Origin: a virus
Lineage: Duplodnaviria > Heunggongvirae > Uroviricota > Caudoviricetes
Length of the DNA: 40,408 nucleotides
IMG/VR virus record: IMGVR_UViG_2529292759_000002
Span: 1-40,408 of that record
Strand: one strand, 5' to 3'
Part shown: positions 5,875 to 40,253 of the stretch, piece after piece
Numbering within the stretch: the first letter of the stretch is position 1
Layout: each line of letters starts with the position of its first letter
Notes under the pieces: generated by a model
Told to the model about the DNA's origin: nothing
The model's input: only the letters and a program-made list of their open reading frames with translations
Databases searched by the model: none
Position numbers and translations under genes: made by a program

Positions 5875-5951
5875 TTACCGTTGAGGTAATAATTATGCTT
5901 ATTTGGTTTGGTGTCAATAGATATGAGTTAAAAAAATTACCCGCAAGGTAA
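5875..5951 (-). promoter_or_regulatory. OL-like region: two 15-bp palindromes (TTACCGTTGAGGTAA 5875-5889; TTACCCGCAAGGTAA 5937-5951) flanking a candidate leftward promoter
   Basis: Palindromes 62 bp apart; minus-strand TTGACA at about 5922-5927 with a TAATTA/ATAATT -10 candidate about 16 bp downstream. Confidence 0.55.
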
Positions 5952-6747: not shown

Positions 6748-6978
6748 ATGAGCGATAACGGACATTTCGATTTCAAAAAGCACTGGCTTGCACTTACTCC
6801 GGATGAGCGTGAAGCCTTCGCACAGGAAGCCGGAACGACGAGTCACTATATCCAGACTCACTTAACAGGTAAGCGCAAAATGCCAGGTAAAGTATTGATG
6901 AATGGGCTTTTTAAAGCCTGTAAAACAAGACAATGGTTGCGCTCAAAAGCAGAACTGGCATACTTCTTCTACTCATGA
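6748..6978 (+). CDS. Cro-like small DNA-binding protein
   Basis: 76 aa, basic; divergent from the repressor across the operator region; AGCTATG start context. Confidence 0.55.
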   Translation: MSDNGHFDFKKHWLALTPDEREAFAQEAGTTSHYIQTHLTGKRKMPGKVLMNGLFKACKTRQWLRSKAELAYFFYS

Positions 6979-7000
6979 TATCCAGCTACACCCCTCTGTA

Positions 7001-7024
7001 GACCGCCACCCGGCGGTCTTTTCA
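7001..7024 (+). terminator. Intrinsic terminator after the Cro-like gene
   Basis: GACCGCC-ACC-CGGCGGTC hairpin followed by TTTTCAT. Confidence 0.5.
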
Positions 7025-7033
7025 TATCTATTC

Positions 7034-7048
7034 GCACCTTAAAGGTAA
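7034..7048. promoter_or_regulatory. 15-bp palindromic site (GCACCTTAAAGGTAA) upstream of the replication operon
   Basis: Same left-half variant (GCACC) as the middle OR site; about 80 bp upstream of the 7129 start. Confidence 0.45.
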
Positions 7049-7128
7049 TAAAAAACCAAATATGGTTGATCTTTTTTTTGTGTCAGCACAAAATAACCGT
7101 AATCCCAATACTAATAACAGGGCTTACC

Positions 7129-7329
7129 ATGGAAATCATTACACGTATTGATGCCGCAAAGCGCGGACTTAAACGCTACTACACCGGAAAACCATGTAAG
7201 CACGGACATGACAGTGAACGCTGGGTTTACAACGGACACTGTGTTGAGTGCACCATGGAATCAAACCGTCGCATCAGGGCAGAGATTAAGCAGATCATGA
7301 TTAATTCCTCCCCACAACACTCAAGCTGA
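7129..7329 (+). CDS. Small Cys/His-rich protein in the cII-equivalent position
   Basis: 66 aa from the internal ATG at 7129; C-x-H-x-H ... C-x2-C pattern (CKHGHDSERWVYNGHCVEC); lies between the Cro-like gene and the O-like gene. Confidence 0.5.
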   Translation: MEIITRIDAAKRGLKRYYTGKPCKHGHDSERWVYNGHCVECTMESNRRIRAEIKQIMINSSPQHSS

Positions 7330-7344
7330 TAGCGGAGATTAATC

Positions 7345-8136
7345 ATGAGCAGACATGCAACAGATTGGGCCTGGGAGACAGATCCAGGTAGCTCGTCATT
7401 AAAGCTCATACTGCTCTCGATGGCTGACAGAGCCGATGAATATAACCTCTGCTACCCCAGCATAGAACGCCTCGTTAAAGACACTTGCCTGAATAAAAAA
7501 ACCGTGCAGGCCGGACTTATATCGCTCATGAAAATGGGGCTTATTTCAGATACCGGGGAGAGAAAGGGAGCGACAAAAAGAGTGCGGGTTTTCTCTCTTA
7601 ATATAACCAAAAACGGGAACATTAAAGGCAACCGAGAGGGGGGCAATGAACCCGAAAACGGTAATGTTACCGAAAACGGGAATATACCCAAAAACGGGAT
7701 GTTGAATGATCCCAAAAACGGGATCCAGAACCAGTCATATAACCAGTCATTTAACCAAGAGAGGGAGAGCAGGACAAAAAACGGGGATTCTGTGCATCAT
7801 GACCCCGGCGCAAACAACGCCGTGATGAATAACTTTGTTCCTCCTAGTGGGCCAGGGCAATTAGGCAAATTTGTCATGCATGAACAATGGCAGCCATCAG
7901 ATGACTTTCTTCGGAAAAGCTCATTGCAGGGGATCTACCTGGACAGTCTGCCAACGGCACAGGAACTTGCAGAGTTCAGAATTTACTGGATGGCTGAGGG
8001 TAAGGCATACCATCAGGCACAGTGGGAGCAGAAGCTGGCAAGGCGGCTGCAGATTAGCAGACAGAAGCAATCAACATTACCTGATAACAACGTTCCGCAC
8101 TGGAACAGCCCTGAAGCATGGGAGGATTTCTTGTGA
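7345..8136 (+). CDS. Replication initiator (O-like) with an internal iteron-encoded linker
   Basis: 263 aa; N-terminal winged-helix-like region; central repeated KNGN/ENGN peptide encoded by the DNA iterons; directly upstream of the P homologue. Confidence 0.65.
   Translation: MSRHATDWAWETDPGSSSLKLILLSMADRADEYNLCYPSIERLVKDTCLNKKTVQAGLISLMKMGLISDTGERKGATKRVRVFSLNITKNGNIKGNREGGNEPENGNVTENGNIPKNGMLNDPKNGIQNQSYNQSFNQERESRTKNGDSVHHDPGANNAVMNNFVPPSGPGQLGKFVMHEQWQPSDDFLRKSSLQGIYLDSLPTAQELAEFRIYWMAEGKAYHQAQWEQKLARRLQISRQKQSTLPDNNVPHWNSPEAWEDFL
7607..7724. repeat. Iteron array (candidate origin of replication) inside the O-like gene
   Basis: Five copies of CC(A/G)AAAACGG(G/T)A(A/T) starting near 7607, 7652, 7670, 7688 and 7712 (three at 18-bp spacing), followed by an AACCAGTCAT direct repeat. 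Confidence 0.65.
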
Positions 8137-8918
8137 ACAACGTTTTTACCGCGATACAAAACCGTGACGGAGAAGCCCTTTCTCGCATGTCAGGTTATGA
8201 GCATCAGTACACCAACAATGACAACGTGGTGAACATGTCAGCAGAGAGGCTTGTTGATGCCCTTTTCAAACAGCTGAAACAACTGTTTCCGGCGGCAGTG
8301 GTAACCAACCTGAAGACGCCAGAGCAGGAAGTTGCTGCAAAACAGCAGTGGATTGCTGCGTTTGCCGAAGGGGGGATCCGAACCCGTGAACAGGTTTCTG
8401 CTGGTATGCGCCACGCCCGCGCCAGTGAGTCTCCGTTCTGGCCGTCGCCAGGGCAATTCATCAAGTGGTGTAAAGACAGCAAGATGGTTCTTGGCGTCAC
8501 CATTGACGATGTGATGGCGGAGTTTCACCGGTACAGCAAGGAAAAAAGTTTATATCCTGGTGGTCCCGAAAGATTCCCGTGGCGACATCCGGTTATGTAC
8601 TGGGTCGTATGTGATACCCGCCGTGCAATGTATCAGCGCCAGCTTAGCGAGATTGAGGTTGAGAAACACGCGCGCAGGCTGCTCGATGATTGGGCGAAAA
8701 AGGTGGCTTCCGGACAGCAGATACCCGATCCGGTGATCAGCATACAGGCAAAGCCAGAACCCATGAGTACACCTCCGGACACAGGGAGAGACGTTTACCA
8801 TCCACCAGGGCGAAGTTTCGGGTGCATGCCTAACGCCGCCACCCTTGGGGGAATAACACCGGCGCAGTGGCTGATGGAGGAATACAGGCGGGGAAAGGCG
8901 GCAGGATTTATCAAGTAA
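8118..8918 (+). CDS. Replication protein P homologue (helicase loader)
   Basis: 266 aa; QWIAAFAEGGIRTREQVSAGMRHARASESPFWPSPGQFIKWC closely parallels recalled lambda P (QWVLAFRENGITTMEQVNAGMRVARRQNRPFLPSPGQFVAWC). Confidence 0.85.
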   Translation: MGGFLVNNVFTAIQNRDGEALSRMSGYEHQYTNNDNVVNMSAERLVDALFKQLKQLFPAAVVTNLKTPEQEVAAKQQWIAAFAEGGIRTREQVSAGMRHARASESPFWPSPGQFIKWCKDSKMVLGVTIDDVMAEFHRYSKEKSLYPGGPERFPWRHPVMYWVVCDTRRAMYQRQLSEIEVEKHARRLLDDWAKKVASGQQIPDPVISIQAKPEPMSTPPDTGRDVYHPPGRSFGCMPNAATLGGITPAQWLMEEYRRGKAAGFIK

Positions 8919-8955: not shown

Positions 8956-9031
8956 TTACCTACTGGGTAATAAAATATTCTAAAATCTATTGATTTAGTG
9001 TCTTATGTGGTTTTTAATTACCTCGGGGGTA
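8956..9031. promoter_or_regulatory. Pair of 15-bp palindromes (TTACCTACTGGGTAA 8956-8970; TTACCTCGGGGGTAA 9017-9031) upstream of the 9036 operon
   Basis: Two perfect sites 61 bp apart; the second overlaps the ribosome-binding region of the 9036 gene. Confidence 0.55.
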
Positions 9032-15711: not shown

Positions 15712-15788
15712 TGGCGTGGCATGCAGGATTCGAACCTGCGACCAACCGCTTAGAAGGCGGTTGCTCTGTCCAACTGAGCTAATGCCAC
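15712..15788 (-). tRNA. tRNA-Arg (anticodon UCU), argU-like
   Basis: Hand-folded cloverleaf: acceptor GTGGCAT/ATGCCAC, D-stem GCTC/GAGC, anticodon stem ACCGC/GCGGT with loop CTTCTAA, T-arm GCAGG-TTCGAAT-CCTGC, encoded CCA; 77 nt. Confidence 0.85.
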
Positions 15789-16125: not shown

Positions 16126-16215
16126 TAATTTGTGCGTTAAATGTCAACTATCTACGATAAATAAATCATATGTGGTTAAATTGGTAATAATTTAATTGCG
16201 TACGGAGTCATTGAT

Positions 16216-24393: not shown

Positions 24394-24857
24394 TGATCGA
24401 TGTTCAAGTTATTCCCGCTACCGAAGAGCATCTTCAGATGATTTTGCCGGATGTTCGTCAGGCTGATATTGACGAATTGTATGCGGTATCACTGATGACT
24501 ACCGAAGATGCACTGCGTGTTGGTCTGCGCACTGCGACTATGGCCTGGTCAGGATTTGCGAACGGAGAACTGGTAACCATGTTTGGCGTATCTCCGGCGT
24601 CAATGATCGGTGGCAATGGTACGCCCTGGCTGGTCGGAACCAGCCGTATTGAAAAATATCAGAAGACATTTCTGCGCCACTGCCGCCCTGTATTGCAGCA
24701 GATGCTGGCAGTTTATCCGCGCCTGGAAAACTATGTCGACGAGCGAAACCATGTTGCCAAAGCATGGCTGCACTGGCTTGGATTCAGGCTTGAAGAGGCC
24801 GCGCCTTATGGTGCTCTTGGTCTTAATTTCCACAGATTTCACATGGAGAGAAAATAA
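24393..24857 (+). CDS. Internal virion protein candidate (gp13-position)
   Basis: 154 aa; 1-nt overlap coupling; position between tail tube and ejection proteins. Confidence 0.4.
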   Translation: MIDVQVIPATEEHLQMILPDVRQADIDELYAVSLMTTEDALRVGLRTATMAWSGFANGELVTMFGVSPASMIGGNGTPWLVGTSRIEKYQKTFLRHCRPVLQQMLAVYPRLENYVDERNHVAKAWLHWLGFRLEEAAPYGALGLNFHRFHMERK

Positions 24858-33565: not shown

Positions 33566-34261
33566 TCAGAAGAACCCTGCCTTGTCGTTGATGTACTCCG
33601 CGTGGGTCTGGATATCACGCAGGCATTTGCTCACACCGACGATGTAGCAGAACATGGTGGTCAGTTCCGCCGCCGCGCCCGATACGTCGTGCCCGTCTTC
33701 CTGTAACTGGTTCAGCAGATTCATCAGCAGTGAGTTCTCCGTCAGGCCGAGAACACCAGACGGCGAATGAATCAGGCTACGGTAGCCGGGCTTCAGTGGG
33801 GCACTGTAGGTTTTGTTCTCTATCTTCATCGCCTGCATTACTGCTGACGCCGTGGCGTTGGCTACCTGGTCGGCAACCATCTTTATGCGTTCTTCCTGCG
33901 GGAGCGAGTTTTTAATGTAACTTCCGGTGCGGCGGATCTGAGGAAGAACCTCACCTGTAACCCATTTACGAAAGCGGTAGGGGATAGTGCCTGGTGTCAC
34001 TGCGTCGCGGCAGCGGAGGATCAGTGTGTAGAGGCCTGACTCGGAGATGATGATCGATTCTTGCTCACCGCCAGGGGTGTCGGTTGAAGCGACGCCCTTC
34101 TCATCATCATCAAGTTTTCGAACAGCATCTCGATGGTTTGCTATGCCTATAGCCCGACAAACATCTGAAGCGATAAACCATGGCTCACCATTAATGACGA
34201 TTACCCGTATATCGGCTTGGGATTCGAAAGAAAAAATGGACGTGCTTTTTGTAGCTGTCAT
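33566..34261 (-). CDS. Bro-N / KilA-N domain antirepressor (Ant-like)
   Basis: 231 aa; N-terminal pattern IRVIVINGEPWFIASDVCRAIGIANHRDAVRKL...ESGLYTLILR typical of Bro-N antirepressors; C-terminal domain paralogous to the small upstream gene. Confidence 0.75.
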   Translation of the reverse strand: MTATKSTSIFSFESQADIRVIVINGEPWFIASDVCRAIGIANHRDAVRKLDDDEKGVASTDTPGGEQESIIISESGLYTLILRCRDAVTPGTIPYRFRKWVTGEVLPQIRRTGSYIKNSLPQEERIKMVADQVANATASAVMQAMKIENKTYSAPLKPGYRSLIHSPSGVLGLTENSLLMNLLNQLQEDGHDVSGAAAELTTMFCYIVGVSKCLRDIQTHAEYINDKAGFF

Positions 34262-34418
34262 AGTGGTTACCTTTTAGTCTGGTTAATCACCACTACCGAC
34301 GCCAATCGGTTGGTGGTGAACTGTGCAGGGTTGGCGTAACCGGCTAAAAGGACCCGGCGCACCTTTCGGTGCCCCCACACAGCCCACCATAATACGAATG
34401 TGGCCGTGCTATACGCAT

Positions 34419-34438
34419 AAAAAAACCGCTTGCGCGGT
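34419..34438 (-). terminator. Intrinsic terminator between the small SOS-box gene and the antirepressor gene
   Basis: Minus-strand ACCGCGCAAGCGGT hairpin followed by TTTTTTT. Confidence 0.55.
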
Positions 34439-34530
34439 GAATGCGCCTTTTAGTAATCCGGGACGCCAATCCCGGCACTGGATTTTGCCAGTGCTCGATT
34501 ACTATGGCACAAGAGGAGTGCGTTGTAAAT

Positions 34531-34910: not shown

Positions 34911-34925
34911 TTACCTGAAAGGTAA
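34911..34925. promoter_or_regulatory. 15-bp palindrome (TTACCTGAAAGGTAA) upstream of the SOS box
   Basis: Perfect site about 40 bp upstream of the LexA box on the transcribed strand. Confidence 0.5.
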
Positions 34926-35029
34926 TATCTATTCGTATTTACAGCCTTTCTATCCATATGTGGTTTTCCAGGTAATAGAATAACCAGATATGCGGCGCAA
35001 CGGGTGCTGCGACTATCTGGAGATTTAAC

Positions 35030-38000
35030 ATGACGGTCTCAACCGAAGTTGACCACAACGAATACACCGGTAACGGCGTTACGACATCGTTTCCGTATAC
35101 TTTTCGAATTTTCAGAAAATCAGACCTGGTTGTTCAGGTGTCTGACCTGAACGGAAACGTAACAGAATTGGTTCTGGATACCGGTTATACGGTAACTGGG
35201 GCGGGCACTTATAGTGGCGGTTCTGTGGTTCTTCCGTCTCCGCTTGCTACTGGATGGCGAATTACGATAGATCGTGTGCTTGATGTAGTGCAGGAGACAG
35301 ACCTTCGCAATCAGGGAAAATTTTTCCCCGAAGTGCATGAAGATGCCTTTGACTACCTGACGATGCTGATCCAGCAATGTTTTGGGTGGTTCAGACGTGC
35401 ATTGATGAAACCATCTTTGCTTGCAAAATATTACGATGCAAAGCAAAACAAAATTTCTAACCTTGCAGATCCATCATTTGAGCAGGACGCTGTAAATAAT
35501 CGCTCAATGCGTAATTATGTCGATGCTGCAATCGCCGGGGTTGTTGGTGGTTTTGGTTGGTTTATTCAGTATGGTTCTGGGGCTGTGTACCGAACGTTCC
35601 AGGATAAAATGCGTGATGCTATTAGCCCCAAAGATTTTGGAGCTGTTGGTGATGGTATAAATGACGATTCCACTGCAATAAGCGCGTGCCTTGAAGCCTC
35701 ATCTCCAGGTTATAAAATTGACGGATTAGGGCTTACTCTTAAAGTATCAACTCTTCCGGATGTCAGTCGATTTAAAAATGCTCGTTTTTTATTTGAGAGA
35801 ATACCGGGCCAGCCTCTTTTTTATGCTTCTGAAGATTTTATCCAGGGAGAGTTATTTAAAATTACAGATACACCGTGGTACAACGCCTGGACGCAGGATA
35901 AAACGTTTGTATATGACAATGTCATCTATGCGCCTTTTATGGCTGGAGACCGCCATGGTGTAAATAACCTCCATGTTGCATGGGTTCGCTCAGGAGATGA
36001 CGGGAAGACCTGGACAACGCCGGAATGGCTTACAGATTTACATGAAAACTATCCCACAGTTAACTATCACTGCATGAGTATGGGGGTTGTCAGAAATCGC
36101 CTTTTTGCTGTAATTGAGACGCGGACCGTGAGCGGAAATAAACTGCAGGTTGCAGAGTTGTGGGATCGCCCAATGAGTCGCAGCCTTCGCGTTTATGGTG
36201 GTATAACGAAAGCAGCAAATCAGCAAGTCGCTTATATTCGCATTACTGATCACGGATTATTTGCTGGTGATTTTGTCAACTTCTCAAACTCTGGTGTTAC
36301 AGGTGTTACCGGGAATATGACGGTGACTACTGTTATTGATAAAAATACTTTTACAGTTACGACGCAAAATACCCAGGATGTGGATCAGAATAACGAGGGT
36401 AGATACTGGAGTTTTGGTACATCATTTCACTCGTCACCATGGAGAAAAACCAGTCTTGGAACTATTCCTTCTTTTGTTGACGGAAGCACTCCTGTTACTG
36501 AGATTCACAGTTTTGCGACGATTAGCGATAACAGTTTTGCTGTTGGCTACCATAATGGTGATATTGGTCCACGCGAGCTTGGGATACTCTATTTCTCTGA
36601 TGCTTTCGGTTCTCCTGGTAGCTTTGTTCGCAGACGCATACCTGCAGAATATGAGGCGAATGCATCTGAGCCATGTGTAAAATATTATGATGGCATTCTG
36701 TATCTGACGACCAGGGGGACATTAAGTACTCAACCCGGTAGTTCATTGCACAGAAGCTCTGATTTAGGTACATCATGGAATTCTCTTCGCTTCCCAAATA
36801 ATGTTCATCACTCAAACCTTCCTTTTGCCAAAGTTGGCGATGAGCTGATTATTTTTGGCAGTGAGCGCGCATTTGGTGAGTGGGAAGGAGGAGAACCTGA
36901 TAACCGTTATGCAGGAAACTATCCAAGAACATTTATGACCAGAGTTAACGTCAATGAGTGGAGTCTGGATAATGTAGAGTGGGTTAATGTTACTGATCAG
37001 ATTTATCAGGGCGGAATAGTTAACTCTGCGGTTGGTGTTGGTTCAGTTTGTATCAAAGACAACTGGCTGTACTACATTTTCGGTGGGGAAGACTTTCTAA
37101 ACCCATGGAGCATAGGGGATAACAACAGAAAATATCCTTATGTTCACGATGGTCACCCGGCTGATTTGTATTGTTTCAGGGTGAAAATTAAACAGGAAGA
37201 ATTTGTTTCAAGGGATTTTGTCTACGGAGCCACTCCTAACAGAACGCTTCCTACTTTTATGTCGACGTCAGGCGTGAGGACGGTTCCTGTACCCGTTGAT
37301 TTCACAGATGATGTTGCCGTCCAGTCACTGACTGTCCATGCAGGTACATCAGGACAAGTTCGCGCGGAAGTCAAACTTGAGGGTAATTACGCCATTATTG
37401 CGAAGAAAGTACCGTCTGATGATGTTACCGCTCAGAGATTAATCGTTAGCGGCGGTGAAACAACGTCTTCAGCAGATGGTGCAATGATAACGTTGCATGG
37501 TTCCGGAAGCAGTACTCCACGTCGCGCGGTATATAACGCACTCGAACATCTTTTTGAGAACGGAGATGTTAAACCTTATCTTGATAATGTAAATGCTCTT
37601 GGTGGTCCGGGAAACAGGTTCTCGACAGTTTATCTTGGCTCCAATCCTGTGGTTACCAGTGACGGAACATTAAAGACAGAGCCGGTCTCTCCTGACGAAG
37701 CATTGCTGGATGCCTGGGGTGACGTCAGGTATATCGCTTATAAATGGCTGAACGCTGTCGCTATAAAGGGGGAAGAAGGGGCGAGGATACATCATGGTGT
37801 AATCGCGCAGCAACTTCGTGATGTTCTTATTTCTCACGGACTCATGGAAGAAGAAAGCACAACATGCCGCTATGCCTTTCTTTGCTATGACGATTATCCC
37901 GCAGTATATGATGACGTCATTACTGGCCAAAGGGAAATGCCGCTGACTGATAATGACGGGAGCATCATTGTTGATGAGGATGATAATCCAGTGATGGTAA

Positions 38001-38149
38001 TAGAAGACATCATTGAGCGCGTTGAAATAACGCCAGCAGGATCTAGATGGGGGGTCAGACCTGATCTCTTATTCTATATCGAGGCAGCATGGCAGCGCAG
38101 AGAAATGGATAAGATAAAAGAGCGGGTTCAGTCTCTGGAAGAACGTTAA
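35030..38149 (+). CDS. Tailspike / tail fibre depolymerase with T7 gp17-like N-terminal anchor and C-terminal intramolecular chaperone domain
   Basis: 1039 aa; N-terminus YTGNGVTTSFPYTFRIFRKSDLVV resembles the T7 tail-fibre N-terminal domain; DFGAVGDGINDDSTAI motif typical of beta-helix (pectate-lyase-like) enzymes; Asp-box-like SGDDGKTW and SDLGTSW; C-terminal region (YLDNVNALGG...RIHHGVIAQQLRDVL...) resembles peptidase-S74 chaperone domains. Confidence 0.8.
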   Translation: MTVSTEVDHNEYTGNGVTTSFPYTFRIFRKSDLVVQVSDLNGNVTELVLDTGYTVTGAGTYSGGSVVLPSPLATGWRITIDRVLDVVQETDLRNQGKFFPEVHEDAFDYLTMLIQQCFGWFRRALMKPSLLAKYYDAKQNKISNLADPSFEQDAVNNRSMRNYVDAAIAGVVGGFGWFIQYGSGAVYRTFQDKMRDAISPKDFGAVGDGINDDSTAISACLEASSPGYKIDGLGLTLKVSTLPDVSRFKNARFLFERIPGQPLFYASEDFIQGELFKITDTPWYNAWTQDKTFVYDNVIYAPFMAGDRHGVNNLHVAWVRSGDDGKTWTTPEWLTDLHENYPTVNYHCMSMGVVRNRLFAVIETRTVSGNKLQVAELWDRPMSRSLRVYGGITKAANQQVAYIRITDHGLFAGDFVNFSNSGVTGVTGNMTVTTVIDKNTFTVTTQNTQDVDQNNEGRYWSFGTSFHSSPWRKTSLGTIPSFVDGSTPVTEIHSFATISDNSFAVGYHNGDIGPRELGILYFSDAFGSPGSFVRRRIPAEYEANASEPCVKYYDGILYLTTRGTLSTQPGSSLHRSSDLGTSWNSLRFPNNVHHSNLPFAKVGDELIIFGSERAFGEWEGGEPDNRYAGNYPRTFMTRVNVNEWSLDNVEWVNVTDQIYQGGIVNSAVGVGSVCIKDNWLYYIFGGEDFLNPWSIGDNNRKYPYVHDGHPADLYCFRVKIKQEEFVSRDFVYGATPNRTLPTFMSTSGVRTVPVPVDFTDDVAVQSLTVHAGTSGQVRAEVKLEGNYAIIAKKVPSDDVTAQRLIVSGGETTSSADGAMITLHGSGSSTPRRAVYNALEHLFENGDVKPYLDNVNALGGPGNRFSTVYLGSNPVVTSDGTLKTEPVSPDEALLDAWGDVRYIAYKWLNAVAIKGEEGARIHHGVIAQQLRDVLISHGLMEEESTTCRYAFLCYDDYPAVYDDVITGQREMPLTDNDGSIIVDEDDNPVMVIEDIIERVEITPAGSRWGVRPDLLFYIEAAWQRREMDKIKERVQSLEER

Positions 38150-38152
38150 AAA

Positions 38153-38180
38153 AAAGCCCGCAAAATATTGCGGGTATCAA
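38153..38180 (-). terminator. Hairpin terminator after the tailspike gene, best formed on the minus strand
   Basis: GCCCGCAA-AATA-TTGCGGGT preceded by A8 on the plus strand (U8 after the hairpin on the minus strand); only ATCAAAAAC follows on the plus strand. Confidence 0.5.
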
Positions 38181-38455
38181 AAACGGAGTTGGTGAAAAGT
38201 TATCTTTGAATTCTATCATGAATCAGTACGTATTTTAAATACATGTTCAGGTTTATTACACCATAGCATTATTAAATACAAAATTAAGTCTATGGTTCCT
38301 GTACAACTGCCCCCACTCTGCTGGCTCGTTCTGTAAAATCATTAGTACTTTTATTGAGATATATGATATGGAACAATAATGATTCATATATGGTTTACTA
38401 TGCGGGTTTAGTCATCAATAATTGACTGGCTTATAGATAGTAAACAGGAGAAAGT

Positions 38456-38860
38456 ATGTCTGCTCAAGTAACAAGTGAGCAATTAAATCAGTTGCTTAGT
38501 TTTGGTTCTCTTGCTGCAGTTATTGCAGGTGTCCCTCCGGAGGTTGCTTTAGGGGCTTTGGCTGGGGCGGTAATTTTTGTTACCTCTGCAGTAGAGTACC
38601 CCATCCGTCGCCGGGTGCTCCTGTCGATGCTCAGCTTTCTTTGCGGCCTTCTCTTTTACAAACCAGCAGCATCAATTCTTATCGGCATAGCCAGCCTGAT
38701 CCCTACCATCACGCAGGACTCTTTTGAAAAAGGGATTGTTTTCTCTGCAGGCGCATTCGTGTCAGCAATTGTCGCTGTGCGTATTGGTATATGGCTCTAT
38801 CACCGTTCCGATAATCCACGCGAGTTAATTCCGGGGAGAAAAGACGATGGTAACGCATGA
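38456..38860 (+). CDS. Holin-like membrane protein (lysis cassette, first gene)
   Basis: 134 aa with 3-4 hydrophobic helices and a charged C-terminus; immediately upstream of a second membrane protein and the endolysin. Confidence 0.55.
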   Translation: MSAQVTSEQLNQLLSFGSLAAVIAGVPPEVALGALAGAVIFVTSAVEYPIRRRVLLSMLSFLCGLLFYKPAASILIGIASLIPTITQDSFEKGIVFSAGAFVSAIVAVRIGIWLYHRSDNPRELIPGRKDDGNA

Positions 38861-39155
38861 GTTTTTTTTGCTTATCACTAATGCAGTTATTTGCACTGGC
38901 ATAGCAATTCGCGTTGTCACATTCCGGCGTAACGGCTCTCAACATCGAAGGTGGGGAGGATGGCTTGCTTATTTCCTGATTGTTGCTGCGGCCAGTATTC
39001 CTGTTCGAGTCGCCTATGCAATCTGGTTACGTACGCCAATGGCTGTGGATTTATCTGAGGTCATTATCAACGCTGTCATGCTGGCTGCGGTTATTAAAAC
39101 GCGCGGTAACGTCGTTCAAATTTTTAAAGTATCGAGGTCTAAACATGGAGATTAA
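38847..39155 (+). CDS. Second small membrane protein of the lysis cassette (holin or antiholin candidate)
   Basis: 102 aa, 2-3 hydrophobic helices; GGGGAG Shine-Dalgarno; overlaps both neighbours. Confidence 0.5.
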
Positions 39156-39774
39156 ACAATTCCAGCGAGCTGCTGGTATCAGCGAGGCACTGGCCGCACG
39201 CTGGTTCTCGCATATAACTTCTGCGATGAAAGAGTTTGGTATCAGCAAAGCAGAAGATCAGGCAATGTTTATTGCTCAAGTCGGGCATGAGTCTGGGGGC
39301 TTCACCAGGTTGCAGGAGAATTTCAACTACAGTGTCAGCGGACTGGCTAACTTCGTTCGGGCTGGGCGTCTCACTCAGGGGCAGGCTAATGCACTGGGGC
39401 GCCGTGCTGGTGAACCACCATTGCCACTTGAGCGCCAGCGCGCGATCGCAAATATGGTATACAGCAAACGCATGGGGAACAATGCCCCTGGTGATGGCTG
39501 GAATTACCGAGGGCGCGGACTTATCCAGATTACCGGTTTGAATAACTATCGTGATTGCGGAAACGGTCTGAAGGTTGACCTGCTGGAGAGCCCTGAACTG
39601 CTGGCGCAGGACGGATATGCGGCTCGTAGCGCGGCGTGGTTCTTCGCCAGCAAAGGATGCATGAAGTATACCGGCGATATTGCACGTGTAACTCTGATTA
39701 TCAATGGTGGCCGGAACGGCATCGACGACCGGCGAGCGCGGTACATCACTGCCAGTAAGGTGCTGGCGGTATGA
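39145..39774 (+). CDS. Endolysin, glycoside hydrolase family 19 (chitinase-like) type
   Basis: Start at the internal ATG (MEIKQF...) with GAGGT Shine-Dalgarno; motifs [27 protein letters not shown] and [10 protein letters not shown] resemble GH19 lysozymes. Confidence 0.75.
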
Positions 39775-40253
39775 TCTGGGCATTCGTAAAAGCATACTGG
39801 AAACAGTTTCTTATCGTGGCAGTGCTTGCTGTTCTGGTCATATCAGGAGTGGTTGCCTGGAATATACACGGCAGTCGCCAGTACGATGCCGGGTATGCTC
39901 AGGCGGAAGAAGACCGCAAAGCCGAAGAAGACAAAGTTCGTCAGTACTACGAACAGGAGAAAGTGACCAATGAACGTGAAGCTCAGCAGAGGATCGACCA
40001 GGCGCGCAATGATGCTCTTGATGCTGCCGCTAGCGCTGGCCGGTTGCAGCAACAACTCTTTGCCATCCGTGAGCAGCTCAGGCAGTATAACGCCATTGTC
40101 GGCGCTGGGTCGTCAGCCGCAGACACCGGAGTTTTGCTTGCCGACGTGCTCAGCAAATCTCTCGAGAGAAACAGACAACTGGCAGAGTATGCTGACCGGG
40201 CAGCCGAAGCCGGAAGAGTCTGCGAAAAACAGTACGACACTTTGACCAGATAG
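39771..40253 (+). CDS. Rz-like inner-membrane spanin
   Basis: 160 aa; N-terminal transmembrane helix ([17 protein letters not shown]) then coiled-coil; overlaps the endolysin stop; embedded lipoprotein ORF in another frame. Confidence 0.7.
40009..40245 (+). CDS. Rz1-like outer-membrane lipoprotein spanin, embedded in the Rz gene
   Basis: ORF in a different frame inside Rz; lipobox-like signal [13 protein letters not shown]; Pro/Ser-rich mature part; exact start (39970, 40009 or 40012) uncertain. Confidence 0.55.
   Translation: MMLLMLPLALAGCSNNSLPSVSSSGSITPLSALGRQPQTPEFCLPTCSANLSRETDNWQSMLTGQPKPEESAKNSTTL

What the first reader, a model, noticed from the sequence alone, without database searches (positions are those of the whole stretch)
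38150..38455. AT-rich 300-bp non-coding gap upstream of the lysis cassette with a terminator oriented against the flanking genes
The hairpin after the tailspike gene has its U-tract on the minus strand, so it would terminate leftward transcription originating within this gap, yet no minus-strand ORF of meaningful size is present. The gap also holds an 8-bp inverted repeat (ATATATGA ... TCATATAT). It may contain the lysis-gene promoter and/or encode a short antisense or regulatory RNA.
Basis: seen in the sequence. Interest (0 to 1): 0.4.

Follow-up and report, generated by a model that had tools for sequence, protein, structure and literature searches.

The report
Empty accessory-gene slot before phage lysis genes
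The 306-bp gap is the accessory-gene slot of an epsilon15-like E. coli K1 phage, here empty: a leftward-only terminator, about 210 bp of orphan AT-rich DNA, and a genus-wide conserved leader hairpin in front of the lysis genes. It is an ordinary mosaic junction, not a new element.

Summary
Window 38150-38455 has no gene and is 32.7% GC against 48.7% for the whole window. A strong hairpin (38157-38174) carries its T8 tract only on the minus strand. The 8-bp inverted repeat exists but is no more than chance gives.

The window is a Uetakevirus (epsilon15/phiV10-like) K1 prophage, 99% identical to phage vB_EcoP_ZX5. In about 100 related loci the interval between tailspike and lysis cassette is hypervariable (99-3126 bp). 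It often holds O-antigen-modifying accessory genes, frequently on the minus strand and ending at a terminator beside the tailspike stop.

The K1 version has three parts:
- **Terminator:** a minus-only terminator with no gene behind it.
- **Orphan DNA:** about 210 bp found only in K1-type prophages, with no credible ORF and no Rfam match.
- **Lysis leader:** a conserved 72-bp segment, made of a palindromic box (TCATATATGG) and a long plus-strand RNA hairpin ending at the ribosome-binding site.

The hairpin shows covariation across 44 variants and a strong excess of G.U over A.C pairs. The epsilon15 GenBank record already annotates its counterpart as an RNase III site.

A roughly 57-nt minus-strand RNA is architecturally possible, but no comparative evidence supports it. 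The finding is ordinary and of low to moderate interest.

The parts
35030..38149 (+). Endosialidase (K1 capsule-specific) tailspike gene, 1039 aa. This is the left flank of the gap.
   Evidence: ORF. It is 99% identical to the CUS-3 siaK1 endosialidase up to window ~38120, where homology stops 30 bp before the stop codon. RefSeq annotates it as an endosialidase in IHE3034.
38148..38175 (-). Intrinsic (Rho-independent) terminator for leftward transcription only. Stem 38157-38163/38168-38174 (G38156 can pair with T38175 as a wobble, or as G-C in variant L019, which has C there), loop 38164-38167, T8 tract = complement of 38148-38155.
   Evidence: Sequence; the terminator scan lists it on the minus strand only. 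Fold -12.1 kcal/mol, z = -3.7. The stem is invariant in 19 copies, with variation only in the loop (38164, 38167) and at 38175. The exact pattern occurs only in K1-type contigs of IMG/VR.
38176..38383 (.). Orphan AT-rich spacer (the 38150-38383 segment is 32.5% GC), specific to K1-type Uetakevirus prophages. It occupies the position of the serotype-conversion (moron) slot.
   Evidence: No nucleotide or translated similarity to any other slot. GC content.
38210..38239 (-). Promoter-like site on the minus strand: TTTAAA, 18 nt, TGaTAGAAT (extended -10). Predicted start near 38203.
   Evidence: Consensus scan, 9 of 12 matches with TG. Both hexamers are invariant in 19 copies, but overall divergence is too low for that to be informative. 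AT-rich DNA gives many such matches: 9 found against 3.6 expected in 1.7 kb.
38148..38204 (-). Hypothetical ~57-nt RNA (the promoter-like site above running to the terminator). Not supported by comparative data.
   Evidence: Only the terminator hairpin folds. No Rfam match beyond terminator-driven noise. Best trans duplex in the phage is -24.3 kcal/mol, against -22 to -29 for shuffled seeds. 38191 is G/T polymorphic at 9:10.
38256..38387 (-). 43-aa ORF, rejected as a gene.
   Evidence: Listed. No Shine-Dalgarno sequence upstream (sequence). The only database hit is its own 98%-identical copy in one Caudoviricetes MAG. The start codon is destroyed in variant L035 (38385 C>T).
38354..38383 (+). 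Promoter-like site TTGAGA, 18 nt, AATGAT, immediately upstream of the box. It would start transcription inside the box, so the RNA would contain the whole hairpin.
   Evidence: Consensus scan, 9 of 12. The start site is not determined.
38384..38393 (+). Conserved palindromic box TCATATATGG (CCATATATGG in most relatives). It marks the left edge of the genus-wide conserved lysis leader.
   Evidence: Alignments of 10 and 44 leaders. The 14-nt motif gives 6 strand-hits (<=2 mismatches) at 4 sites in the window, against 0.33 expected: 7052-69, 16162-79, 34954-67 and 38384-97. Weaker copies were found by inspection at 5897-5906 and 9003-9012. The same sites occur in epsilon15, phiV10 and Tyrion.
38393..38445 (+). 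5'-leader RNA hairpin of the lysis cassette: a 9-bp basal stem, internal loops and an apical stem. It is a diverged member of the long hairpin found in all Uetakevirus lysis leaders.
   Evidence: Window fold -17.1 kcal/mol, z = -1.9; epsilon15 fold -35.1 kcal/mol, z = -6.6. Across 44 distinct leaders, 89.8% of cells pair against 38-53% when the partner is slid; 10 of 24 pairs change on both sides. G.U 201 cells against A.C 17 cells, so the plus-strand RNA is the selected form. A covariance model trained only on epsilon15-type leaders hits window 38384-38458 at 26.3 bits, E = 9e-5.
38394..38422 (+). Alternative promoter-like site TTTACT, 17 nt, AATAAT inside the hairpin. It would give a short unstructured leader.
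   Evidence: Consensus scan, 9 of 12. Undetermined.
38446..38458 (+). Shine-Dalgarno AGGAG (38446-38450) and the ATG (38456) of the first lysis gene.
   Evidence: Sequence. The gene product matches Phage_holin_8 and PHROG 198 holin.
38456..40253 (+). Lysis cassette: two holin-family genes, a GH19 endolysin and Rz/Rz1 spanins. This is the right flank of the gap.
   Evidence: ORFs; Pfam matches; annotation of ZX5 and IHE3034. The first 700 bp of the cassette (window 38456-39155) are 73-99.7% identical across 36 phage records, starting exactly at the ATG in most closer relatives.

Best explanation
The gap is the accessory-gene ('moron', serotype-conversion) slot of a Uetakevirus, here without a gene. 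It lies at the mosaic junction between a horizontally exchanged K1 endosialidase tailspike module and the conserved lysis module.

(1) The hairpin at 38148-38175 is a one-way terminator for leftward transcription. It is the kind that ends minus-strand conversion genes beside the tailspike stop in relatives. Here it is most likely inherited baggage from such a convergent arrangement. At most it acts as an insulator, stopping antisense transcripts that arise in the AT-rich gap or further right exactly at the tailspike stop codon. Because it has no U-tract on the plus strand, tailspike transcripts can read through into the lysis genes.

(2) 38176-38383 is non-coding orphan DNA.

(3) 38384-38455 is the conserved lysis-cassette leader. 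It consists of a palindromic box shared with the phage's other promoter regions, then a plus-strand RNA hairpin ending at the Shine-Dalgarno sequence. The hairpin probably serves as an RNase III processing site and/or a translational control structure for the first holin-family gene.

Shown: the anatomy, the distribution, the slot variability, the hairpin covariation and its strand. Inferred: the relic or insulator role, read-through, the promoter position, and RNase III cleavage.
For: Identity of the phage: 99.3% identity to vB_EcoP_ZX5, genus Uetakevirus.

Slot contents in relatives:
- Minus strand: epsilon15 genes 21/22, phiV10 oac, the Tyrion acetylase, and SPN1S acetylase/GtrA.
- Plus strand: acetylases in TL-2011b and PAS61.
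- Small plus-strand ORFs in phiv142-3 and EC.W1-9.

Census of 73 distinct slots, 99-3126 bp long: 17 carry minus-strand ORFs, 19 plus-strand ORFs, 1 both, and 36 none of 90 aa or more. Five of the seven minus-strand ORFs tested are Acyl_transf_3.

Terminators after the tailspike are plus, bidirectional or minus-only across the genus. L087 has a minus-only terminator serving a 321-aa minus-strand gene, with the same geometry as here. L078 has a minus-only terminator in an empty 122-bp slot.

The K1 gap is all-or-none and has no relatives. CUS-3 homology ends at 38120 and lysis-module homology begins at 38384-38456.

No plus-strand terminator lies in the gap. The tailspike gene has its own repressor operator (34911) and box (34954), whereas the gap has no operator.

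Hairpin. The epsilon15 record annotates the homologous 24755-24817 as 'RNaseIII, mRNA processing'.
Against: - No expression data are available, so neither read-through nor a promoter in the gap is demonstrated.
- The K1 copies are 97.8-100% identical, so conservation of the terminator or of the promoter-like sites says nothing about function.
- A 'relic' cannot be proven, because no donor sequence or gene remnant was found.
- A well-formed extended -10 promoter-like site sits 35 nt upstream of the terminator on the minus strand. That fits a small transcription unit as well as it fits chance.
- The K1 leader hairpin is much weaker than in relatives (z = -1.9) and lacks their loop SD/AUG, so its function may differ.
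- The fold-back and translation-control idea got only modest support: mean opening energy of the initiation region is 6.5 kcal/mol in long RNAs against 5.1 in short ones, with mixed results between types.
Confidence: 0.6

Rival explanations
1. The gap encodes a small regulatory RNA of about 57 nt. It would be transcribed leftward from the promoter-like site at 38239-38210 and end at the T8 terminator. It could act as an Hfq-type trans-acting sRNA, or as a cis-antisense RNA against tailspike-to-lysis read-through transcripts.
For: An extended -10 promoter-like site, TTTAAA-18-TGaTAGAAT. A strong terminator with a long U-tail preceded by a U-rich stretch, which is the general shape of Hfq-binding sRNAs (established knowledge). 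The phage does use small RNAs elsewhere: isrK and C4 hits at 34309-34494. The RNA would be perfectly complementary to any plus-strand read-through transcript.
Against: No Rfam family matches. There is no homolog outside near-identical K1 prophages, so no covariation or conservation test is possible. No structure exists beyond the terminator. No trans target in the phage scores above shuffled controls. A 50:50 polymorphism lies in the putative seed (38191). Promoter-like matches are enriched by AT-richness alone. Other Uetakeviruses manage without any such unit.
Confidence: 0.15
2. The hairpin works on the plus strand. It would be a 3'-end stabiliser or a weak attenuator of the tailspike mRNA, with the minus-strand T-tract being incidental (the A-run simply follows the TAA stop).
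For: The same hairpin forms in plus-strand RNA at -14.4 kcal/mol, z = -3.1. It lies 7 nt after the stop codon. Stable 3' hairpins protect mRNAs from exonucleases (established knowledge). Many relatives have plus-strand or bidirectional terminators at this spot.
Against: The hairpin is followed by UAUCAAAAAC, so the scan does not call it on the plus strand. A run of eight T on the opposite strand directly abutting the stem is the defining signature of a minus-strand terminator and is unlikely to be incidental.
Confidence: 0.12
3. The terminator ends a tiny protein-coding moron, the 43-aa minus-strand ORF at 38387-38256. This would be analogous to the small epsilon15 conversion proteins.
For: The ORF stops 80 nt before the terminator, similar to the geometry of the L087 moron. 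Epsilon15 encodes small conversion proteins in this slot (66-aa gp22).
Against: There is no Shine-Dalgarno sequence. The only homolog is a 98% self-copy. The start codon is lost in one natural variant. Neither GenBank (ZX5) nor RefSeq (IHE3034) annotates it.
Confidence: 0.03

Closest known systems
Serotype-conversion / accessory-gene slot between tailspike and lysis genes of epsilon15-like phages (epsilon15 genes 21-22; phiV10 oac)
   Same: Same genomic position, between the tailspike stop and the gp23-like holin gene. The same conserved right boundary (box plus hairpin leader). AT-rich foreign composition. A terminator abutting the tailspike stop.
   Different: No gene is present. The repressor operator (TTACC-N5-GGTAA) that lies upstream of the box in epsilon15-type leaders is absent. 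The sequence has no relative in any other slot.
Epsilon15 'RNaseIII, mRNA processing' site 24755-24817 (GenBank NC_004775 annotation)
   Same: A homologous element in the same place. A covariance model built from epsilon15-type leaders hits window 38384-38458. The basal stem and box are shared, and compensatory changes keep the pairing.
   Different: The window's hairpin is interrupted and much weaker (-17 against -35 kcal/mol). Its apical part has been replaced by an unrelated small palindrome. The loop SD-like AAGGGGG and the AUG in the 3' arm are lost, and the main SD is stronger (AGGAG against GGTGG). RNase III cleavage has not, to my knowledge, been shown for any member.
Rho-independent terminators of convergent genes and morons (general class)
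   Same: GC-rich 7-bp stem, 4-nt loop and a T8 tract, located tail-to-tail with the neighbouring gene.
   Different: No upstream gene on its own strand, and strictly unidirectional.
Prophage-encoded Hfq-binding and antisense sRNAs (e.g. IsrK, P1 C4, both matched elsewhere in this window)
   Same: Possible promoter plus terminator mini-unit in a prophage intergenic region.
   Different: No family match, no conservation, no predicted structure or target.
Structured leaders of phage lysis and early genes (lambda sdi upstream of S; RNase III site in the lambda N leader) and IS10 fold-back inhibition. These comparisons rest on my own knowledge.
   Same: A long hairpin immediately 5' of the ribosome-binding site of the first lysis gene. 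In some relatives the box pairs with the SD or AUG.
   Different: No sequence relationship. No dual-start motif. The accessibility test gave only a modest and inconsistent effect.

Membership tests
Intrinsic (Rho-independent) terminator, minus strand | GC-rich stem-loop (at least 5 bp, loop 3-8 nt) more stable than expected by chance | tested here: met
   7-bp stem with 5 G-C pairs and a 4-nt loop. Fold -12.1 kcal/mol, z = -3.7, with 0 of 200 shuffles as stable.
Intrinsic (Rho-independent) terminator, minus strand | U-tract immediately 3' of the stem | tested here: met
   The minus-strand tail is CTTTTTTTT. On the plus strand the tail is TATCAAAAAC, so this feature is not met for rightward transcription.
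Intrinsic (Rho-independent) terminator, minus strand | RNA 3' ends at the U-tract in vivo | not testable with these tools
   Needs Term-seq or 3' RACE.
Uetakevirus lysis-cassette leader (box plus hairpin; the epsilon15 'RNase III' site) | Located directly upstream of the gp23-like holin gene, with a CCATATATGG-type box at its 5' edge | tested here: met
   The box TCATATATGG at 38384-38393 lies 62 nt before the ATG. It sits at the same position in 44 distinct leaders.
Uetakevirus lysis-cassette leader (box plus hairpin; the epsilon15 'RNase III' site) | Long plus-strand RNA hairpin supported by covariation; the window sequence is recognised by a model that excludes it | tested here: met
   89.8% of cells paired against 38-53% when slid; 10 pairs with double changes. 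G.U 201 against A.C 17. Covariance model R1 hit at 26.3 bits, E = 9e-5, full length, the only hit reported in the window.
Uetakevirus lysis-cassette leader (box plus hairpin; the epsilon15 'RNase III' site) | Cleavage by RNase III | not testable with these tools
   Only an annotation in NC_004775. The window's stem is interrupted, which may reduce cleavage.
Moron / lysogenic-conversion cassette | A protein-coding gene with its own promoter and terminator inserted between conserved phage genes | tested here: not met
   No credible ORF. Only the position, the composition and a terminator fit.
Small regulatory RNA gene (Hfq-type or antisense) | Match to a described family, or conservation or covariation beyond near-identical copies | tested here: not met
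   No Rfam match better than E = 0.48 and none near any family's gathering score. Homologs exist only at 97.8-100% identity.
Small regulatory RNA gene (Hfq-type or antisense) | Own promoter and terminator delimiting a short transcript | tested here: inconclusive
   The terminator is met. The promoter is only a 9-of-12 consensus match with TG, in AT-rich DNA where such matches are enriched.
Repressor-controlled promoter of this phage (operator TTACC-N5-GGTAA) | An operator within or next to the promoter region | tested here: not met
   The window has 11 exact operators (0.09 expected), and none lies in 38150-38455. The nearest is at 34911. Epsilon15-type lysis leaders do have one 27-39 bp upstream of the box.

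The most novel reading that the evidence does not exclude
In K1-type Uetakeviruses, the lysis cassette has lost both the plus-strand terminator and the repressor operator that precede it in relatives. In that setting the gap could encode a ~57-nt terminator-ended RNA antisense to tailspike-to-lysis read-through transcripts. Together with the box and hairpin leader, this RNA could keep the lysis genes silent in lysogens or set lysis timing. More broadly, the CCATATATGG box, which sits in the promoter spacer at several sites genome-wide, and the leader hairpin could form an uncharacterised genus-wide control system for late and lysis genes.
Probability: 0.1. Interest if true: 0.5.

Novelty: new member of a known kind. 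Interest (0 to 1): 0.22.

Why it matters
As it stands, the result mainly explains an odd-looking terminator as normal phage mosaicism. The interval is the accessory-gene slot of epsilon15-like phages. An empty version, with a leftover convergent terminator, is what module exchange of tailspikes is expected to produce.

Two by-products are more useful.
- The lysis-cassette leader hairpin is conserved across the genus, with covariation and a clear strand signature. This makes the old 'RNase III site' annotation testable.
- A 10-bp palindromic box recurs at the phage's promoter regions next to repressor operators. It could identify the still unknown late-gene control of this genus.

For engineering K1-specific or reporter Uetakeviruses, the 38176-38383 segment looks like a natural, dispensable insertion site.

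Tried and rejected
- **43-aa minus ORF as a gene:** rejected. It has no SD and no homologs, and its start codon is lost in one variant.
- **Rfam match in the gap at permissive thresholds:** only terminator-driven noise.
- **Remnant of a conversion gene or shared flanks with other slots:** blastn-short and tblastx of 38121-38395 against about 80 non-K1 loci and against the rest of the window found nothing beyond the box.
- **Origin of the terminator elsewhere:** an exact-pattern scan of IMG/VR returned only the same K1 junction, in 20 contigs. L029/L117, which seemed to show the gap in a new context, is a deletion derivative joining window 9613 to 38051.
- **Trans targets of the hypothetical RNA within the phage:** none better than shuffled seeds.
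- **RNAalifold on the raw MAFFT alignment:** it missed the long stem because of indels. The structure was therefore specified by hand and checked with slid and shuffled controls, and with a model that excluded the window.
- **Fold-back inhibition of translation in long versus short leaders:** the effect was modest and inconsistent, so it remains only an idea.
- **Pinning the lysis promoter by consensus:** three mutually incompatible -10 candidates, so the start site is left open.
- **Substitution pattern among 19 K1 copies:** 11 variable sites in 306 bp, against about 3% in flanking genes. Divergence is too low to infer constraint.
- **Literature:** the ZX5 paper (PMC9782041) does not discuss this gap. 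The epsilon15 genome paper (PMC2698709) and the SPC32H primary papers are not held.

Full report
**What the window is.** The region around the finding is 99.3% identical to Escherichia phage vB_EcoP_ZX5, genus Uetakevirus, the epsilon15/phiV10 group. The 306-bp gap is found full length, at 95% identity or more, in 72 of 5426 complete E. coli genomes. Those whose names give a serotype are K1, and the list includes IHE3034, APEC O1, CE10 and ST95 isolates. It never appears as a partial match. The left flank is a 1039-aa endosialidase tailspike gene (35030-38149). It is 99% identical to the tailspike of the P22-like phage CUS-3 up to about 38120 and unrelated after that point. The right flank is the lysis cassette (38456-40253): two holin-family genes, a GH19 endolysin and Rz/Rz1.

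**The observation.** All three described features are present.
- The gap is 32.7% GC, against 48.7% for the window.
- The hairpin CCCGCAA-AATA-TTGCGGG (38157-38174) is followed by eight T on the minus strand. These are the complement of 38148-38155 and overlap the TAA stop.
- The scan calls the hairpin a terminator on the minus strand only, and finds no plus-strand terminator between 37500 and 39200.
- The hairpin folds at -12.1 kcal/mol, with none of 200 shuffles as stable.
- The inverted repeat ATATATGA/TCATATAT is at 38359-38366 and 38384-38391. A perfect 8-bp inverted repeat occurs in about half of composition-matched simulations, so it carries no weight by itself.

**Context from relatives.**
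- In epsilon15, phiV10, Tyrion and SPN1S, the interval between tailspike and lysis cassette holds serotype-conversion genes on the minus strand. These are the O-antigen polymerase and its inhibitor, the Oac O-acetyltransferase, other acetylases and GtrA.
- In TL-2011b and PAS61 it holds plus-strand acetylases. In phiv142-3 and EC.W1-9 it holds small plus-strand ORFs.
- I collected 98 loci containing the first lysis gene. They give 73 distinct slots, 99 to 3126 bp long. Of these, 17 have minus-strand ORFs of 90 aa or more, 19 have plus-strand ORFs, one has both, and 36 have none; 11 of those 36 are K1 variants.
- Five of the seven minus-strand ORFs tested are Acyl_transf_3 proteins.
- Terminators just after the tailspike stop are plus-only, bidirectional, minus-only or absent, depending on the slot type. 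L087 has a minus-only terminator serving a 321-aa minus-strand gene. L078 has a minus-only terminator in an empty 122-bp slot.

A terminator pointing against the tailspike is therefore normal for this position. The only unusual point is that the K1 version has no gene behind it.

**The left two thirds of the gap (38150-38383).** This segment has no relative anywhere except in K1-type prophages that are 97.8-100% identical.
- No remnant of a gene was found by nucleotide or translated comparison.
- The 43-aa minus-strand ORF has no ribosome-binding site and no homolog other than its own copy. One natural variant has lost its start codon.
- No Rfam family matches, even at E = 10, apart from hits driven by the terminator.
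- A promoter-like site with an extended -10 (38239->38210) could, together with the terminator, give a roughly 57-nt RNA. That RNA has no structure beyond the terminator. It has no target in the phage that scores better than shuffled controls. It also carries a common polymorphism in its 5' part.
- Promoter-like matches are enriched throughout this AT-rich stretch: nine found against 3.6 expected in 1.7 kb, and five of the nine lie in the gap.

I therefore treat this segment as orphan, probably non-functional DNA. The terminator is most likely inherited from a convergent arrangement in whatever donor supplied the tailspike's 3' end. The sRNA reading stays open at low probability.

**The right third of the gap (38384-38455).** This is the conserved part. 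Alignment of the lysis-gene upstream regions shows that similarity across the genus begins exactly at a 10-bp palindromic box. The box is CCATATATGG in most phages and TCATATATGG here. Similarity then continues to the ATG.
- After the box comes a long hairpin whose 3' arm ends one or two nucleotides before the Shine-Dalgarno sequence. In epsilon15 it folds at -35.1 kcal/mol (z = -6.6). In the window it folds at -17.1 kcal/mol (z = -1.9).
- Across 44 distinct leaders, 89.8% of cells form standard pairs, against 38-53% when the partner is slid by 1-3 columns. Ten of 24 pairs show changes on both sides. The covariation score is 0.288, against about 0.1 in the slid controls.
- G.U pairs outnumber A.C pairs by 201 to 17. 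The plus-strand RNA, that is the lysis mRNA leader, is therefore the form under selection, not the DNA or the opposite strand.
- A covariance model built only from epsilon15-type leaders finds window 38384-38458 at 26.3 bits, E = 9e-5. It is the only hit reported in the window.
- The epsilon15 GenBank record already labels the homologous stretch 'RNaseIII, mRNA processing'.
- Compared with relatives, the K1 leader has had its apical part replaced by a small unrelated palindrome. It has lost the SD-like loop and the AUG in the 3' arm, and it has gained a stronger main SD.

**The box.**
- The 14-nt motif occurs at four sites in the window (7052-69, 16162-79, 34954-67, 38384-97), giving 6 strand-hits against 0.33 expected by chance. 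Each site lies upstream of a rightward transcription unit.
- Weaker copies lie at 5897-5906 and 9003-9012. The same sites exist in epsilon15, phiV10 and Tyrion.
- At the copies I inspected other than the K1 lysis copy, the box lies next to TTACC-N5-GGTAA sites. There are eleven exact copies of that motif in the window against 0.09 expected. The epsilon15 record annotates such sites as repressor-binding sites.
- At two promoter-like sites with good -35 hexamers, the geometry I read is -35, 5 nt, box, 2 nt, -10. The box therefore sits in the promoter spacer.
- Applied to the lysis leader, this geometry would put the start site inside the 5' arm of the hairpin. The consensus scan suggests different promoters. 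The hairpin's RNA-level conservation requires transcripts that begin at or upstream of the box.

I could not resolve the start site from sequence alone.

**How it probably works.** The K1 gap has no repressor operator and no plus-strand terminator. The tailspike gene has both an operator and a box upstream. The simplest reading is that in this lineage the lysis genes are reached at least partly by read-through from the tailspike transcript. The leader hairpin would then act as a processing site and/or a translation-control structure.

A fold-back model was tested by computation. In it, only long read-through RNAs occlude the initiation region. The support was modest and inconsistent: 6.5 against 5.1 kcal/mol mean opening energy, and 5.6 against 1.5 for the K1 type.

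**Verdict.** The finding is real and explained by known kinds of features. It is an empty accessory-gene slot at a mosaic junction, with a leftover or insulating convergent terminator, orphan AT-rich DNA, and the conserved lysis leader. The antisense-RNA idea is unsupported but not excluded. Interest is low to moderate. The conserved leader hairpin and the box are the parts worth an experiment.

Noticed in passing
window 34309-34494 (-): Rfam gathering-score hits to the C4 antisense RNA (34309-34394, 77.7 bits) and isrK (34419-34494, 77.9 bits). They lie just upstream of the antirepressor gene (33566-34261, minus strand). This looks like a P1 immI-type RNA control of the antirepressor in a Uetakevirus.
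   Followed up: no
window 5897-5906, 7056-7065, 9003-9012, 16166-16175, 34954-34963, 38384-38393: A 10-bp palindromic box (CCATATATGG-like) recurs in intergenic regions. Four copies lie upstream of rightward transcription units, and the 5897 copy lies in a leftward promoter-like site. The same sites occur in epsilon15, phiV10 and Tyrion. At two promoter-like sites (5897 and 9003) it sits in the spacer: -35, 5 nt, box, 2 nt, -10. Its binding factor and role are unknown.
   Followed up: partly
window 5875, 5937, 6649, 8956, 9018, 10349, 12542, 16111, 33478, 34531, 34911: Eleven exact TTACC-N4-7-GGTAA palindromes against 0.09 expected. They match the motif of the 'repressor' binding sites annotated in epsilon15. 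Repressor operators therefore appear to be spread over the whole genome, including upstream of the portal-operon and tailspike genes, but not upstream of the K1-type lysis cassette.
   Followed up: partly
window 34984-35020 (+): The tailspike gene also has a stable leader hairpin ending at its Shine-Dalgarno sequence. The 34954-35035 segment folds at -27.5 kcal/mol, z = -4.0. It lies downstream of a box and an operator.
   Followed up: no
loci L004, L005, L009, L010 and most other non-K1 leaders, about 25-35 nt upstream of the first lysis gene: Leaders other than the K1 type carry an SD-like AAGGGGG or AGGAGG in the hairpin loop and an AUG in the 3' arm. Together these make a short out-of-frame uORF that overlaps the start of the first lysis gene. 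Its reading frame differs between leader types, so the peptide is not conserved. The K1 type has lost both elements.
   Followed up: partly
window 37600-38120 (+): The endosialidase tailspike is 98.7-99% identical at the DNA level to that of the P22-like phage CUS-3 and its relatives. Homology stops 30 bp before the stop codon. This indicates recent exchange of a tailspike module between unrelated podophage lineages that infect K1 strains.
   Followed up: partly
L029 / L117 (IMGVR_UViG_2740892258_000015): A prophage derivative in which window ~9613 is joined to ~38051. About 28 kb of structural genes are deleted, while the gap and the lysis cassette are kept intact.
   Followed up: yes
window 15712-15788 (-): A tRNA-Arg (anticodon TCT) gene on the minus strand, lying between the terminase genes and the portal operon.
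   Followed up: no
L122 (E. coli IHE3034), 6823-8398, just beyond the right end of the prophage: The host genes yfgI, yfgH and yfgG point into the prophage's lysis cassette. Host read-through would therefore be antisense to the lysis genes.
   Followed up: no
window 38456-39155 (+): The lysis cassette begins with two different holin-family genes: Phage_holin_8, 134 aa, and Phage_holin_3_7, 102 aa. They overlap by 14 nt.
   Followed up: no
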